From: a virus | Lineage: Duplodnaviria; Heunggongvirae; Uroviricota; Caudoviricetes | DNA: 5,171 nucleotides | Direction: 5' to 3' (one strand) | Virus record (IMG/VR): IMGVR_UViG_2602041644_000005 | Shown: in pieces, positions 1,365 through 4,965 of the stretch | Layout: the number at the start of each line of letters is the position of its first letter | Numbering within the stretch: position 1 is the stretch's first letter | The notes under the pieces: generated by a model | Databases searched by the model: none | What the model was told of the DNA's origin: nothing | Seen by the model: the letters and a program-made list of their open reading frames with translations, nothing else | Made by a program: the position numbers and the translations under genes

Positions 1365-1400
1365 CTACTTAAAATAGCAGAATGCAACTACTTAAAATAG
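1365..1400. promoter_or_regulatory. Two copies of a 13-bp operator-like repeat CTACTTAAAATAG (1365-1377 and 1388-1400), candidate OR sites with PRM/PR-like promoter hexamers
   Basis: Exact 13-bp direct repeat with a 23-bp period. Each copy is an imperfect dyad (CTA.TT.AA.TAG, one mismatch). Each contains TAAAAT (a -10-like hexamer) 5-7 nt upstream of an in-frame ATG of the CI ORF (1382 and 1403). On the minus strand TTGCAT (-35-like) faces the cro-like gene. Confidence 0.5.
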
Positions 1401-2143
1401 AAATGACTAGCGTATGTGATGCGAGTAACCTTCTACCTATGGTAGAAGAACAGAAGTATCCAGATTTCGCCAAGAGACTAAACGAGCTAATGACAAACAA
1501 GGGAATTTCTGTCACCCAACTCAAAAGTCTTGTGGGCGTTACATATGAAATGGCGCGGCGATACACAATCGGCGCTGCGAAGCCTCGTGCCTCTGTCATG
1601 AATAAACTTGCATTGGCTCTGGGGGTATCAGCTTCATATTTAGAATATGGTGTTGGCGAGAGAGAAGGATGTAAGGAAATGGCAAGCATCCCCAATCCAA
1701 CAAAACCCGATGTATACAGGATAGAAGTTTTGGATCTTAGCGTTAGCGCAGGACCTGGAACCTATATGCTTTCAGACTATGTTGATGTGCTCTACGCCAT
1801 TGAGTTCACAACAGAGCATGCCCGTTCTCTTTTCGGTAATCGTTCTCAAGATGATATTAAAGTTATGACTGTAAATGGCGACAGCATGTCCCCTACTCTA
1901 GTTTCCGGAGATCGACTGTTTGTCGACATTTCTGTTCGCAACTTCCAAACTGATGGTGTTTACTCTTTCGTTTATGGTAAGACGTTCCACGTTAAACGTC
2001 TACAAATGCAAGGCAACAAACTCGCCGTTCTTTCGGATAATCCAGCCTATGAGAAATGGTACATTGATGAGAAGTCCCAAGATCAACTTTATGTTATGGG
2101 CAAAGCATTGATACACGAATCAATTAAATACAACCGGCTTTAG
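1382..2143 (+). CDS. cI: CI-like phage repressor: N-terminal XRE-type HTH plus C-terminal S24 (LexA-like) self-cleaving peptidase domain
   Basis: HTH segment FAKRLNELMTNKGISVTQLKSLVGVTYEMARRY. The C-terminal domain carries the catalytic Ser motif VNGDSMSPTL and a downstream Lys (HVKRL), as in LexA/CI/UmuD. It is divergent from the cro-like gene. The start is uncertain among in-frame ATGs at 1382, 1403 and 1439; none has an SD, which fits a leaderless PRM-type transcript. The gene symbol is used functionally, not as an identity claim. Confidence 0.85.
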   Translation: MQLLKIEMTSVCDASNLLPMVEEQKYPDFAKRLNELMTNKGISVTQLKSLVGVTYEMARRYTIGAAKPRASVMNKLALALGVSASYLEYGVGEREGCKEMASIPNPTKPDVYRIEVLDLSVSAGPGTYMLSDYVDVLYAIEFTTEHARSLFGNRSQDDIKVMTVNGDSMSPTLVSGDRLFVDISVRNFQTDGVYSFVYGKTFHVKRLQMQGNKLAVLSDNPAYEKWYIDEKSQDQLYVMGKALIHESIKYNRL

Positions 2144-2170
2144 TTCTTCGTTTAGACTATAGAACTAAAG
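2138..2170 (+). other. 10-bp stem-loop (CTTTAGTTCT ... AGAACTAAAG) spanning the cI stop codon
   Basis: Perfect 10-bp inverted repeat with a 13-nt loop. It is followed by an A-run, not a T-run, so it is not a canonical intrinsic terminator. It could be an RNA-stability or processing hairpin, or mark the insertion boundary of the AT-rich segment. Confidence 0.3.
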
Positions 2171-2313
2171 GTGAAAAAATAATATTTATCAAGCAAGTGC
2201 TATTACTAATAGTTGTTTTACTCTCTTATTTTTATTAAACATTATCATTAACAATATAAAATAATCACCCAGCGTAAATTACAATATGCTGGGGGTCGAA
2301 AGGATAGAGAAAT

Positions 2314-3390
2314 ATGACAAAATCAATTTGTTTTTTTAATCATAAAGGTGGGGTAAGTAAAACCACAACAACCTTCAATCTTGGATGGGCACTTGCGGAT
2401 GAAGGCAAGAAAGTATTGATGGTTGACCTTGATTCGCAATGTAATCTAACAGGAATGGTTCTTGGCTATGAAAAGATTGATGAGGGTTTAGATTCTTTTT
2501 ATTCTAGCAGAGATAACTTAACTCTTGGACCTATTGTAGAATATTTGATTAATGGCGGACAACCTGAAGCATACCTTGAAAAAGAAACGGGAAAATTACA
2601 CCCTACACTGCATGAAAACCTTCTGCTTCTTCCCGGACATTTAGATGTTTCGGACTTAGATTCACAGATAAGTGTTTCTCTAAAAATTGCTGCTGGTATT
2701 CCTGCTACAAGAAATATACCAGGGAACCTGCCAAAAATATTACAGCTAATCGCCATGAAGAATAATATTGATTACATTCTTTATGATCTCAGCCCTAATG
2801 TTGGAGGTTTAAATGAAGTAGTTCTCATGTCAAGTGACTATTTTATCGTACCTGTAGCTCCAGACTTTTTTTGCTGGCAAGCAATTCGCTCTCTCTCAAA
2901 AAATATACCTCGCTGGCACAAAGAATTAGCATTATTTAAAGAAAATAATGATGGTAACTCTTCACAATCAATTAAAAATGCACCGCAGTTTCTAGGTATG
3001 ATTCAGCAGAGATACAGGCCGCGTAAAGGAGCACCTGTAAAATCTTTCGAAAAATGGATGGCAGCTATCCGTGATGCTGTTGATTCGATCTTAGTGCCAA
3101 ATCTAGAAAAAATTACCTGCATAATTCCACGAGATAAAGTGCAACATGCAATTAACAAAACAACAGTCAGTGGAGATTTATCAGCCTATGATCTTGCGCA
3201 TATTTCCGATTTCAACTCATTAATCGCAATAAGCCAACAACTAGCGACACCTGTTTTCTCCATCAGTGATCAGCAAATTCGCGATTCAGGGCAATTTGGG
3301 CATGCCTTAAATACAATGAAATCAAGCAGAGACGCCTTTAACGAACAATTTAAAGGGCTGGCTCAACGAGTTCTAGAACTTACAAAGTAA
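2314..3390 (+). CDS. ParA/MinD-family P-loop ATPase (deviant Walker A) with an uncharacterised C-terminal extension, 358 aa; orphan, no ParB partner
   Basis: N-terminus MTKSICFFNHKGGVSKTTTTFNLGWALADEGKKVLMVDLDSQCNLT matches the ParA/Soj/MinD deviant Walker A (KGGxxKT[TS]) and the following hhhhDxD motif. A mid-protein hydrophobic beta-strand plus Asp (YILYDLSPN) resembles ParA Walker B. AAGGA lies 9 nt upstream of the ATG. The gene is clearly more AT-rich than its neighbours (hand counts of 60-nt samples give roughly 28-45% GC against about 50% in the cro-side genes). The final about 150 aa are not recognisable. Confidence 0.85.
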   Translation: MTKSICFFNHKGGVSKTTTTFNLGWALADEGKKVLMVDLDSQCNLTGMVLGYEKIDEGLDSFYSSRDNLTLGPIVEYLINGGQPEAYLEKETGKLHPTLHENLLLLPGHLDVSDLDSQISVSLKIAAGIPATRNIPGNLPKILQLIAMKNNIDYILYDLSPNVGGLNEVVLMSSDYFIVPVAPDFFCWQAIRSLSKNIPRWHKELALFKENNDGNSSQSIKNAPQFLGMIQQRYRPRKGAPVKSFEKWMAAIRDAVDSILVPNLEKITCIIPRDKVQHAINKTTVSGDLSAYDLAHISDFNSLIAISQQLATPVFSISDQQIRDSGQFGHALNTMKSSRDAFNEQFKGLAQRVLELTK

Positions 3391-3397
3391 TGCATGT

Positions 3398-3420
3398 GCC
3401 CGGCCGCATAACCGGGCTTT
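3398..3420 (+). terminator. Intrinsic terminator after the ParA-like gene
   Basis: GC stem GCCCGG (3398-3403) pairs with CCGGGC (3412-3417) around an 8-nt loop, followed by TTTACTCTTCTTT. It lies 8 nt after the TAA stop at 3388-3390. Confidence 0.55.
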
Positions 3421-3575: not shown

Positions 3576-3633
3576 CAACAACAAATATCTACTTTTTGTT
3601 GTTGATTTTTGCTACTTTAAGTAGCAACATAAT
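3576..3633. promoter_or_regulatory. Candidate OL-type operator/promoter: perfect 19-bp dyad TTGCTACTT-T-AAGTAGCAA (3609-3627), an upstream CTACTT half-site (3589-3594), a flanking 10-bp inverted repeat (3576-3585 / 3595-3604) and CATAAT (3628-3633)
   Basis: The dyad core CTACTTTAAGTAG matches the cI-proximal repeats CTACTTAAAATAG at 11 of 13 positions. The two CTACTT half-sites here are 22 bp apart, against 23 bp at the cro/cI site. -35-like TTGCTA and -10-like CATAAT overlap the dyad. Everything is read directly from the sequence; function is inferred. Confidence 0.45.
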
Positions 3634-3736
3634 GTAAGCTATCACGGACAGGCAGGACGCCCACGAAGTAGCCGCCGGTGGCGTATGAATGACCGGATGA
3701 TTCGTTAGCAACAAAAAAGCGCCCTACCGGACGCTT

Positions 3737-3750
3737 CGCTCTTTAAAAAT
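3737..3750 (+). promoter_or_regulatory. boxA-like element CGCTCTTTAAAAAT (possible nut-site component)
   Basis: Near-identical to the boxA consensus (GCTCTTTAACAA in rrn; CGCTCTTAAAAATT in lambda nutL as I recall it). It sits about 110 nt downstream of the OL-like promoter on the plus strand. No convincing boxB hairpin follows, so this is tentative. Confidence 0.3.
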
Positions 3751-3853
3751 CAGTAACCCTCACTTTGGGCCTGGATCTGGTGGCCTGGGACGAGGTGGAA
3801 TATGAAAAGGCTCTATTGGTCGACTCATTATCCAATCCTATTATGTCTCATTT

Positions 3854-3880
3854 CTTCGGTTTCGGTGGTTTCGGCTTCGG
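3854..3880. repeat. Short hexamer repeat block CTTCGG-TTTCGG-TGG-TTTCGG-CTTCGG (mirror-symmetric)
   Basis: Read directly. It lies 23-50 nt beyond the stop of the minus-strand 164-aa gene, in its 3' flank. Confidence 0.5.
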
Positions 3881-3902
3881 AGGCACATGTCCGTGAACTG
3901 GA

Positions 3903-4397
3903 TTATGCTTGTTGGTCATCATTAATATCCGTTAGTTCATTCTCTAGAGGTAGATCTCCCGCACACCAAGCTATAAATTTTTCTTTGGTTGTTAAATCGT
4001 ACTTAGTTGGAACACCAGCAAAAATACAGGCCCGAATGAAAGCCGCTCGTTCAAGTGATTTCCATGGATTACTATCAGTATCTTGGATTTTTAAATACCT
4101 AGCTTGCAACTGATCTTCAGGAAGGGTATCAGACTCAATCAGCAGTCTTTTGTAATGCCTCGCTTGCTCTTTAGACATTCCAGCCTCTTGGCCAAACTGA
4201 TAGACCAACTGAAGAACCGAAAGTACGGCAACAAACAAACCGAAAATAAATAAATTACTGTACGGGGCGAAAACTGAAAAACCGAGAACGATTAACATCA
4301 ACGTTATTAATTTATCAATGCGAGTTAACAACGTGTAATTCATCTTCTCCAATACATAAGAGTAGTGAACATAAAATTTATAATCGTCTCTGGTCAT
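3903..4397 (-). CDS. Small inner-membrane protein (164 aa; two predicted N-terminal TM helices plus charged C-terminal domain); candidate SieB-like superinfection-exclusion or abortive-infection protein
   Basis: A 495-nt ORF in AT-rich DNA, where stop codons are frequent, so unlikely by chance. The hydrophobic hairpin LITLMLIVLGFSVFAPYSNLFIFGLFVAVLSVLQLVY is followed by a K/E/D-rich soluble region. It is oriented opposite to cI and convergent with the ParA-like gene. The start is ATG 4397, or ATG 4343 with GGAG 3 nt upstream. SieB-like is a guess from size, topology and genomic context only. Confidence 0.65.
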   Translation of the reverse strand: MTRDDYKFYVHYSYVLEKMNYTLLTRIDKLITLMLIVLGFSVFAPYSNLFIFGLFVAVLSVLQLVYQFGQEAGMSKEQARHYKRLLIESDTLPEDQLQARYLKIQDTDSNPWKSLERAAFIRACIFAGVPTKYDLTTKEKFIAWCAGDLPLENELTDINDDQQA

Positions 4398-4496
4398 ATT
4401 AGTCTCAGTTTTCCTTGGGTGGTTTTGGAGGAACTGGAGGCTTTTGTCTTAACGGCACATGCCTCTCCTCATACTTATCTACACATAGATCCATAT

Positions 4497-4553
4497 AAAT
4501 CCTTATCGTTGTTGGGGAGGGTTACATAATAACCAAATCCTTGTTGTTGGGGA
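4497..4553. repeat. Direct repeat AAATCCTT(ATC)GTTGTTGGGGA (4497-4518 and 4535-4553) flanking a small inverted repeat GGTTA-cataa-TAACC (4520-4534)
   Basis: Read directly. It lies in the non-coding region upstream (on the minus strand) of the 164-aa gene, near the right edge of the AT-rich segment. Confidence 0.5.
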
Positions 4554-4782
4554 ATAACCAGGTCCACCTCGCCTGATGTGGCTAAAAGCAGGCACATAAC
4601 AGCTAAGTATTTTCAACCAGAGAGAATCCTTAGCGTTGTGGTGAATGCGCAGGCTGATGCGCGAAAGACATTGCAGCTATTGCGGAAAAGAGCTGTTCGG
4701 CGGGGCAATTAAACGCCCGTGAGAGTCTGAAATAACCGCAAGCCGGAGATCAGCACCGGTCACCACAACAGCCACTGCTTTG

Positions 4783-4828
4783 GCGGTACCAGTTTGTACA
4801 CTTGCTTCCGGCTGGTACCGCTCTTTTT
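4783..4828 (+). terminator. Intrinsic terminator or attenuator (10-bp stem GCGGTACCAG / CTGGTACCGC, 19-nt loop, then TCTTTTT)
   Basis: Perfect 10-bp stem 4783-4792 pairs with 4812-4821, followed by a run of five T at 4824-4828. It is plus-oriented (the minus strand has no T-run after the stem). It lies about 140 nt upstream of the ATG at 4966. Confidence 0.55.
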
Positions 4829-4917
4829 ACAAAACAGAGAAGAGCATCACCGGACGACGGGCTCATAACCCAATCCATCCGGGCGGCTGCCACCGCAGGT
4901 GTTCTTCTCTGTTTTGT
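4829..4917 (+). other. Long-range inverted repeat forming a potential 20-bp RNA helix (4829-4848 with 4898-4917) that encloses about 49 nt, immediately upstream of the RBS of the 4966 gene
   Basis: ACAAAACAGAGAAGAGCATC pairs with GGTGTTCTTCTCTGTTTTGT; 17 of 17 core positions pair if one G-U is allowed, and the helix extends to 20 bp with a second wobble. A stem this long is unusual for a simple terminator and has the length RNase III recognises. Confidence 0.4.
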
Positions 4918-4965
4918 GGAGAAACCAACCGACCTTGCAGGGTCGATATGATGAGGAGCAGCAAA

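What the first reader, a model, noticed from the sequence alone, without database searches (positions are those of the whole stretch)
2138..2293. Two hairpins bracketing the cI to ParA-like intergenic region
A 10-bp stem-loop spans the cI stop codon (2138-2170) but lacks a U-tract. A second hairpin (CCCAGC, 14-nt loop, GCTGGG at 2268-2293) sits in the 5' UTR of the ParA-like gene about 7 nt upstream of its SD. These could modulate read-through from cI or translation of the ATPase.
Basis: seen in the sequence. Interest (0 to 1): 0.28.

Follow-up and report, generated by a model that had tools for sequence, protein, structure and literature searches.

The report
Two seam hairpins between cI and ParA
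Two real RNA/DNA stem-loops flank the short AT-rich spacer between a prophage repressor gene and an imported ParA-like gene, but they are not terminators or ribosome-site masks, are not conserved, and natural strains carry broken versions, so they look ordinary.

Summary
Both inverted repeats exist. Hairpin 1 is a perfect 10-bp stem with a 13-nt loop (2138-2170) over the cI stop codon. Hairpin 2 (2268-2293) is really 9 bp, including one G-U, with an 8-nt loop. Both are rarer than shuffles predict and fold with pair probabilities of at least 0.96.

The window is the immunity region of an SfIV/SfV-like E. coli prophage. Its order is OR, cI, a 170-nt AT-rich gap, a ParA-like gene, terminator-like sites, then OL. 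The ParA gene is a 'moron' in the slot that rexAB fills in lambda.

Neither hairpin has a U-tract on the + strand. The first terminator-like signals come after ParA, so cI-ParA co-transcription is the likely default.

The hairpins sit on the two seams of a 155-nt lineage-specific linker (2144-2298). Hairpin 2 replaces the ribosome site and start codon of an 11-residue N-terminal extension that homologues keep. It is absent from the closest homologue found outside this lineage (95% aa). Natural E. coli variants weaken it (A2271T, G2288A) without compensating changes, and ParA stays intact.

I see no evidence for a regulatory switch. At most the hairpins are weak RNA decay barriers. Interest is low.

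The parts
1365..1400 (.). OR: two copies of the operator-like 13-mer CTACTTAAAATAG (1365-1377, 1388-1400) between cro (-) and cI (+)
   Evidence: 8 matches to CTACTTNAANTAG against 1.7 expected; exact copies occur only here and at 3612-3624
1439..2143 (+). cI-type repressor gene (234 aa, HTH_3 + Peptidase_S24); stop TAG at 2141-2143
2138..2170 (+). Hairpin 1: perfect 10-bp stem (3 G-C pairs), 13-nt loop, straddling the cI stop and the left homology breakpoint (2145)
2144..2298 (.). 155-nt lineage-specific linker (27% GC; the 97 nt between the hairpins are 18.6% GC), found only at this locus
2236..2265 (+). Weak sigma-70-like match TAAACA-18-AATAAT; overlaps TATAAAATAA (2255-2264), a motif shared with ParA homologues
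   Evidence: (9/12 matches; the count for the window is not above shuffles)
2268..2293 (+). Hairpin 2: 9-bp stem (one G-U), 8-nt loop, dG -13.1; the 3' arm contains the relic start codon ATG 2286-2288
2300..2304 (+). Shine-Dalgarno AAGGA for the ParA-like gene. In homologues this stretch is coding sequence (K-D) of the N-terminal extension
2314..3390 (+). ParA-like P-loop ATPase gene (358 aa), 37.7% GC; a moron cargo in the rexAB-equivalent slot
3398..3417 (+). First + strand terminator-like site after cI: GCCCGG-loop-CCGGGC followed by a T-rich tail
3576..3604 (+). Perfect 10-bp hairpin CAACAACAAA/TTTGTTGTTG followed by ATTTTTG, just before OL
3612..3624 (.). OL: palindromic operator CTACTTTAAGTAG

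Best explanation
The two stem-loops are real and would fold stably in + strand RNA, but they are structural punctuation rather than switches. They lie on the two seams of a 155-nt AT-rich linker. That linker joins the cI repressor gene to an imported ParA-like moron sitting between cI and OL, where lambda has rexAB.

Neither hairpin terminates + strand transcription, and terminator-like signals appear only after ParA. In the lysogen, cI and ParA are therefore most likely made on one PRM transcript, possibly topped up by a weak promoter in the linker.

Within that RNA the most probable effect (inferred, not shown) is on decay. Hairpin 1 re-forms behind the terminating ribosome and could block 3' exonucleases from entering cI after cleavage in the 81% A+U spacer. 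Hairpin 2 caps the ParA segment, buries the out-of-frame relic AUG (2286) and leaves the SD free. Hairpin 2 arose where an ancestral SD and start codon decayed. It is under no detectable purifying selection, so any contribution is small and dispensable.
For: Shown:
- The hairpins exist, beat shuffles and have pair probabilities of at least 0.96.
- There is no U-tract on the + strand, and terminator scores are far below those of in-window terminator-like sites and the SfV cI terminator.
- Terminator-like sites lie at 3398-3417 and 3576-3604, before OL at 3612-3624. OR is at 1365-1400.
- SfV and SfIV place a canonical terminator directly after their cI, a different allele whose gene shares no DNA match with the window. 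A near-identical cI (97% aa) is followed by an unrelated ParA (23% identity) with its own terminator. The slot therefore exchanges cargo.
- HK639 has the same order: cI, three extra genes, terminator, pL.
- Homology to other cI alleles stops at 2145. Homology to the 95%-aa ParA locus L033 runs only over 2299-3390.
- The linker occurs nowhere else.
- Homologues carry TATAAAATAAAGG-N7-ATG plus an 11-codon extension. In the window the ATG at 2286 is out of frame, and a TAG at 2305 closes the ParA frame upstream.
- Population SNPs: the hairpin 2 stem is hit three times. Two changes are disruptive, one gives G-U, and none is compensated. The gap has 12 mutation events in 170 nt, against 6 variable sites in 1782 nt of cI plus ParA.
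Against: - Both hairpins are statistically unusual, which invites a functional reading.
- The hairpin 1 stems carry no SNP in the sample, but only about 0.8 would be expected.
- A different 9-bp hairpin sits at the end of cI in the sister locus L004, which hints at convergence.
- No transcript ends, half-lives or reporter data exist, so co-transcription and any decay role are inferences.
Confidence: 0.55

Rival explanations
1. Hairpin 2 is the 5'-terminal stem-loop of a ParA mRNA made from the moron's own promoter. The -10 would be TATAAA at 2255-2260 and the start near 2267. The structure would protect the message from 5'-end-dependent RNase E attack, as the ompA 5' hairpin does.
For: TATAAAATAA is the one upstream motif shared with distant ParA homologues. 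An RNA starting at 2267 keeps the full hairpin one nucleotide from its 5' end. Morons typically carry their own promoter (established knowledge: Juhala et al. 2000). The spacer is 18.6% GC.
Against: The -35 match is poor. The only scanner hit (2236-2265) would start the RNA near 2272, inside the 5' arm, leaving a 5-bp stem. Promoter-like hits in the window are not above shuffles. Homologues with the same motif have no hairpin. Natural variants break the stem.
Confidence: 0.15
2. Hairpin 1 attenuates transcription read-through from cI, through pausing or a factor-dependent stop. Hairpin 2 tunes translation of ParA.
For: The structures are stable and well placed: one at the cI stop and one 6 nt before the SD. 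In the MFE, but not the centroid, the SD region pairs weakly with U-rich codons 5-8.
Against: There is no U-tract, and the hairpin 1 stem has only 3 G-C pairs. A terminating ribosome would melt hairpin 1 (inference from ribosome footprint size). The spacer is C-poor (11% C), a weak substrate for Rho. The SD and AUG are not in the hairpin. There is no conservation, and there are uncompensated stem SNPs.
Confidence: 0.15
3. The hairpins act on the minus strand as weak terminators or insulators. They would stop antisense transcription from inside the moron before it runs into cI.
For: On the minus strand hairpin 2 is followed by TGATTATTTTATATTG (5 T in 8, 8 in 12). Hairpin 1 is followed by CCGG then TTGTATTTAATT. 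The minus-strand score of hairpin 2 (-13.5) equals that of the 3576-3604 site and approaches the post-ParA site at -5.8. A promoter-like site lies on the minus strand at 2562-2533.
Against: There is no minus-strand gene upstream of them. The scanner did not call either one. The minus-strand stem of hairpin 2 has a mismatch and a 14-nt loop. The score formula was recalled from memory and is only relative. The same SNPs weaken the stem.
Confidence: 0.07
4. The inverted repeats are DNA-level sites. They could be binding sites for a dimeric regulator, or the ends of a small hairpin-ended mobile element that delivered the linker.
For: Inverted repeats sit at both ends of a discrete 155-nt segment of unknown origin. 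There is also a 13-bp palindrome CTATTACTAATAG at 2200-2212.
Against: The arms occur nowhere else in the window. They do not match the operator 13-mer. The linker is single-copy across 5426 E. coli genomes and absent from the phage collection; its one hit in the plasmid collection is this same E. coli chromosome locus (NZ_CP141089.1). That rules out an active repeat family.
Confidence: 0.05

Closest known systems
Lambda immunity operon cI-rexA-rexB (PRM transcript ending at tImm before OL/PL)
   Same: Gene(s) on the same strand directly after cI and before OL. There is no terminator between cI and the cargo, and terminator-like sites come just before OL. The cargo is probably expressed in the lysogen.
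   Different: The cargo is a single ParA-like ATPase unrelated to RexAB. A 170-nt AT-rich gap with two hairpins separates it from cI. Co-transcription is inferred, not shown.
Phage 'morons' (HK97/HK022; Juhala et al. 2000, from memory)
   Same: An extra gene sits between genes that are adjacent in relatives (SfV/SfIV). It has lower GC (37.7%) and its own terminator, and alternative cargo occupies the same slot.
   Different: Its own promoter is not demonstrated. The seams carry hairpins that are not part of the moron definition.
Intrinsic terminator directly after cI in SfV/SfIV (annotated in NC_003444)
   Same: A stem-loop immediately 3' of the cI stop codon.
   Different: The SfV element has a G-C-rich stem, a 4-nt loop and 7 T. 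Hairpin 1 has 3 G-C pairs in 10, a 13-nt loop and an A-rich tail.
Intercistronic stem-loops that set differential mRNA stability (malE-malF REP, papBA), and the ompA 5' stabiliser hairpin (established knowledge)
   Same: Stable hairpins flank an AU-rich, RNase E-prone spacer inside a likely polycistronic RNA. One lies at the 3' end of the upstream cistron and one at the 5' edge of the downstream one.
   Different: There are no decay data, no conservation, and natural stem-breaking variants. This is only a 'works like' analogy.
IS200 left-end hairpins (one terminator, one RBS mask; from memory)
   Same: Two hairpins lie upstream of a gene at the edge of an inserted segment.
   Different: The linker is single-copy. 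Hairpin 2 does not mask the RBS. Hairpin 1 is not a terminator.

Membership tests
Rho-independent terminator (+ strand) | G-C-rich stem with a short (3-8 nt) loop | tested here: not met
   Hairpin 1 has 3 G-C pairs in 10 and a 13-nt loop. Hairpin 2 has an adequate stem (9 bp, 8-nt loop). Neither was called by the scanner.
Rho-independent terminator (+ strand) | U-tract immediately 3' of the stem | tested here: not met
   The tails are GTGAAAAA and GGTCGAAA, with 1 T in 8 each. Relative scores are -73 and -52, against -6 to +15 for control sites.
Any curated RNA family (Rfam 15) | Covariance-model match | tested here: not met
   No match at E-value up to 1 anywhere in the window.
Conserved cis-regulatory RNA structure | Structure kept in homologous loci, with covariation | tested here: not met
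   No equivalent hairpin lies upstream of ParA in about 25 non-redundant homologous loci. Within the E. coli lineage, stem SNPs are uncompensated.
Phage moron | Insertion between genes that are adjacent in relatives, with deviant composition | tested here: met
   SfV/SfIV have cI, then a terminator, then OL-side DNA. L004 carries different cargo. ParA is 37.7% GC and the linker is 27% GC, against 49-50% GC at the window's left end and about 50% GC for the E. coli host, the latter from general knowledge.
Phage moron | Own terminator downstream | tested here: met
   Site at 3398-3417 with a T-rich tail. L033 and L004 also end their ParA genes with terminators.
Phage moron | Own promoter upstream | tested here: inconclusive
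   There is only a 9/12 consensus match at 2236-2265, and the scan count is not above shuffles.
Lambda-type cI read-through operon | Cargo on the cI strand, between cI and OL, with no intervening terminator | tested here: met
Lambda-type cI read-through operon | Single PRM transcript covering cI and the cargo | not testable with these tools
   Needs Northern blotting or RNA-seq of a lysogen.
nut (boxA/boxB) or put antitermination site | Lies downstream of PL or PR within the early transcript | tested here: not met
   The hairpins lie between cI and OL, upstream of PL. A boxA-like CGCTCTTTAA is instead at 3738-3747, past OL.
5'-terminal mRNA stabiliser hairpin (ompA type) | Stem-loop within a few nt of the primary 5' end | not testable with these tools
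   The transcription start is unknown. A TATAAA at 2255-2260 would fit, but the scanner's promoter would start inside the stem.
Hairpin-ended mobile element (IS200/IS605-type derivative) | Multiple copies in genomes | tested here: not met
   The linker is single-copy: 110 places in 109 of 5426 genomes, none on plasmids; every place inspected is this cI-ParA junction. It is absent from phages, and its one plasmid-collection hit is the same chromosomal locus.

The most novel reading that the evidence does not exclude
The cI-ParA gap might be a tuning knob under diversifying selection. It shows 12 mutation events in 170 nt, while cI plus ParA show 6 variable sites in 1782 nt. Three of the twelve fall in the hairpin 2 stem and give -13.1, -12.4, -8.5 and -7.1 kcal/mol versions. 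If hairpin 2 sets the half-life or the start-site choice (relic AUG 2286 versus AUG 2314) of a lysogen-expressed ParA-like defence or exclusion gene, natural alleles would be a graded series of expression levels.
Probability: 0.08. Interest if true: 0.4.

Novelty: new member of a known kind. Interest (0 to 1): 0.14.

Why it matters
The hairpins themselves matter little. They show how a moron junction looks after the native cI terminator is displaced and an ancestral start site decays. They also caution against reading every stable stem-loop as a regulator.

The context is more useful. The slot between cI and OL in this prophage family exchanges cargo, and twice holds very different orphan ParA-like ATPases. 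That slot is where lysogen-expressed exclusion or defence genes usually sit. Knowing that transcription probably reads through from cI tells an experimenter how to express and test that gene.

Tried and rejected
- Rfam scan of the whole window at E-value up to 1: nothing.
- Search for the linker elsewhere, in phages and plasmids (distant mode) and in E. coli genomes (near and distant modes): only this locus. This rejects a repeat or mobile-element origin.
- Operator test: the 13-mer CTACTTNAANTAG occurs exactly only at OR and OL. The gap palindrome CTATTACTAATAG and the hairpin arms do not match it. The hairpin 2 arms occur only in hairpin 2.
- Covariation: impossible across families because the hairpins are absent from homologues. 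Within the lineage only uncompensated SNPs were found.
- Recurrence of 'a hairpin at the stop of the upstream gene': several loci show one. However, two top hairpins in 350 nt would fall near the ORF end about 45% of the time by chance, so I did not count this as evidence.
- Metagenome scan for more haplotypes: 6 loci, all identical to the window.
- Small ORFs in the gap: only a 21-aa minus-strand TTG ORF, with no support.
- Literature: no paper mentions these proteins by accession or describes a ParA-like gene downstream of cI.
- PADLOC: only P-loop-limited hits, so ParA is not a member of a listed defence system.
- Comparison of the 4783-4922 structure with the HK639 putL-like RNA: no convincing similarity.

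Full report
**Observation.**
- Hairpin 1 has arms at 2138-2147 and 2161-2170. They are 10/10 complementary with a 13-nt loop.
- The cI stop codon TAG (2141-2143) lies in its 5' arm.
It has nine pairs (2268-2276 with 2285-2293, one G-U) and an 8-nt loop.
- As RNA the two fold at -9.3 kcal/mol (z = -2.9) and -13.1 kcal/mol (z = -4.5).
- In a 246-nt context both appear in the MFE and the centroid. Every pair has a probability of 0.96-1.0.
- Dinucleotide shuffles give 0.09 perfect stems of at least 10 bp per window, and 0.012 for the 231-nt region. None of 300 regional shuffles reached -13.1 kcal/mol.
- The repeats are therefore real and non-random. The same window has two more perfect 10-bp inverted repeats, so this is a common feature of this DNA.

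**Context.**
- The window matches 108 of 5426 complete E. coli genomes at 99% identity or more.
- It is the immunity region of an integrated SfIV/SfV/mEp460-like lambdoid prophage. In strain Z247 the prophage lies next to intD and a tRNA-Arg gene.
- Pfam confirms a CII-like gene, a YdaS/Cro-type gene, a cI repressor (HTH_3 + Peptidase_S24) and a ParA/AAA_31 ATPase.
- The 13-mer CTACTTAAAATAG occurs twice between cro and cI. Its palindromic form CTACTTTAAGTAG occurs once at 3612-3624.
- The order is therefore OR, cI, gap, ParA, OL. This puts the ParA-like gene where lambda has rexAB.
- HK639 is the nearest sequenced phage by cI (59% aa). It is annotated with the same plan: cI, three extra genes, terminator, pL.

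**Not terminators.**
- The scanner called nothing in 2138-2293.
- Its first + strand calls after cI's last codons (an internal, low-ranked match at 1912-1926 aside) are at 3398-3417, and there is a hairpin plus T-run at 3576-3604.
- The + strand tails of the two hairpins hold one T in eight.
- I used a d'Aubenton-Carafa-style score recalled from memory, as a relative yardstick only. The hairpins score -73 and -52. The in-window control sites score -13 to +3, and the SfV cI terminator scores +15.
- In SfV and SfIV a canonical terminator, GAACCTGCTTCGGCAGG followed by a T-run, follows cI directly.
- Here that element is absent and termination signals come after ParA. The simplest reading is that PRM transcription runs through cI into ParA. 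This step is inferred, not shown.

**Seams.**
- DNA homology with the sister prophage L004 (cI 97% aa) ends at 2145, two bases past the stop codon.
- L004 then carries a different ParA-family gene (23% identity) with a different 235-nt gap and its own terminator.
- L033 is the closest relative of the window's ParA found outside this lineage (95% aa, 81% DNA). It sits after a different, short repressor. Its homology covers only 2299-3390.
- So 2144-2298 is a 155-nt lineage-specific linker with 27% GC. The 97 nt between the hairpins are 18.6% GC.
- The linker is found nowhere else in phages or E. coli genomes; the single hit in the plasmid collection is this same chromosomal locus.
- Hairpin 1 straddles its left edge. 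Hairpin 2 ends five bases before its right edge.

**Origin of hairpin 2.**
- Enterobacterial homologues carry TATAAAATAAAGG, about seven bases, an ATG and an 11-codon variable extension before the conserved Met-Pro/Thr-Lys-Ser.
- The window keeps TATAAAATAA (2255-2264) and AAAGGATAG (2299-2307).
- Between them the SD is gone. The ATG at 2286 is out of frame, and a TAG at 2305 closes the ParA frame upstream.
- The former Lys-Asp codons now serve as the SD (AAGGA, 2300-2304) for the ATG at 2314.
- The relic ATG lies in the 3' arm of hairpin 2, with an unpaired probability of 0.0. The SD and the true AUG are not in the hairpin (0.40 and 0.52).

**Constraint.**
- No equivalent hairpin lies upstream of ParA in about 25 non-redundant homologous loci.
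- Within the E. coli lineage I compared 11 viral contigs, 7 variant genomes and 6 metagenome contigs.
- The 170-nt gap shows 12 mutation events: 2150, 2173, an A insertion, 2189, 2198, 2246, 2266, 2267, 2271 twice, 2288 and 2313.
- By contrast, 1782 nt of cI plus ParA show six variable sites.
- Three events hit the hairpin 2 stem:
  - A2271T lowers the stability to -8.5 kcal/mol.
  - G2288A lowers it to -7.1 kcal/mol. It also destroys the relic ATG and is seen in two sources.
  - A2271G keeps a G-U pair at -12.4 kcal/mol.
- None is compensated. ParA stays intact where checked: identical protein in SM107 (G2288A) and 99.7-100% aa identity in the viral contigs.
- The hairpin 1 stems carry no SNP. 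Only about 0.8 would be expected in the 14 non-coding stem positions, so this is uninformative.
- G2173A, fixed in the variant clade, breaks the 2-bp extension of hairpin 1.

**Mechanism.**
- I commit to the following. The hairpins are passive structures at moron seams inside a probable cI-ParA co-transcript.
- If they do anything, it is as decay barriers around an AU-rich, RNase E-prone spacer.
- Hairpin 1 would re-form after the terminating ribosome leaves and shield the cI 3' end.
- Hairpin 2 would cap the ParA segment and hide the relic AUG.
- This role is an inference from established RNA decay biology, and the SNP data suggest it is dispensable.

**Rivals.**
- Hairpin 2 could be a 5'-terminal stabiliser of an mRNA made from the moron's own promoter.
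- Both hairpins could be minus-strand terminators. They have T-richer tails on that strand.
- They could be DNA-level sites. This is weakened by the single-copy status and the lack of motif repeats.

**Verdict.**
- The feature is an ordinary, lineage-specific pair of intercistronic stem-loops, and interest is low.
- The surrounding cargo slot and the conserved structured RNA at 4783-4922 are more interesting than the hairpins.

Noticed in passing
window 4783-4922 (+): There are two large adjacent stem-loops: 4783-4821 with a 12-bp stem, and 4824-4922 with a stem of about 25 bp closing a branched top. The MFE is -79 kcal/mol for 4745-4935, z = -6.0. The 168 nt at 4761-4928 are 99.4% identical in L004, although the DNA immediately upstream (about 3640-4760) and the gene that follows 4928 do not match, and there is no Rfam hit. 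The element lies in the presumed PL leader, just before the first early-left ORF (ATG 4966). It could be an antiterminator-type or other leader RNA. It shows no clear similarity to the annotated HK639 putL-like RNA.
   Followed up: partly
window 2314-3390 versus L004 2879-3964: Near-identical cI genes (97% aa) are followed by two very different orphan ParA-family ATPases (23% identity) in the same slot between cI and OL. Relatives of the window's ParA recur next to repressor genes in many prophages. There is no ParB-like partner and no full-length PADLOC match. The nearest solved relative is the uncharacterised 3pg5. This is a candidate lysogen-expressed exclusion or defence gene.
   Followed up: partly
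window 2144-2313: The cI-ParA gap is a polymorphism hot spot: 12 mutation events in 170 nt, against 6 variable sites in 1782 nt of the flanking genes. The OR region and post-ParA non-coding DNA are also more variable than the coding DNA.
   Followed up: partly
window 3738-3771 (+): A boxA-like CGCTCTTTAA (3738-3747) is followed by a small hairpin (about 3757-3771), downstream of OL. This is a possible nutL-type site. On the minus strand 3737-3716 is a terminator-like hairpin, probably ending the minus-strand genes to the right.
   Followed up: no
window 1365-1400 and 3612-3624: The operator-like 13-mer CTACTTAAAATAG occurs twice at OR. Its perfect palindrome CTACTTTAAGTAG occurs at OL. Together they define the immunity specificity of a cI allele not present in sequenced phages; the best match is HK639 at 59% aa.
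   Followed up: partly
window 2196-2212: GTGCTATTA matches the conserved GTGCTATTAACA box found 20-25 nt upstream of TATAAAATAAAGG in ParA homologues. Here it lies about 50 nt further away and forms a 13-bp palindrome, CTATTACTAATAG. Its function is unknown.
   Followed up: no
window 3752-4760 versus L001 (strain Z247): Downstream of about 3751 the window differs from Z247, which annotates a different 171-aa minus-strand ORF and a frameshifted pseudogene. The window's 164-aa membrane-like ORF (3903-4397, phrog_6315) is found in L026 only. This is a second variable cargo spot in the early-left region.
   Followed up: no
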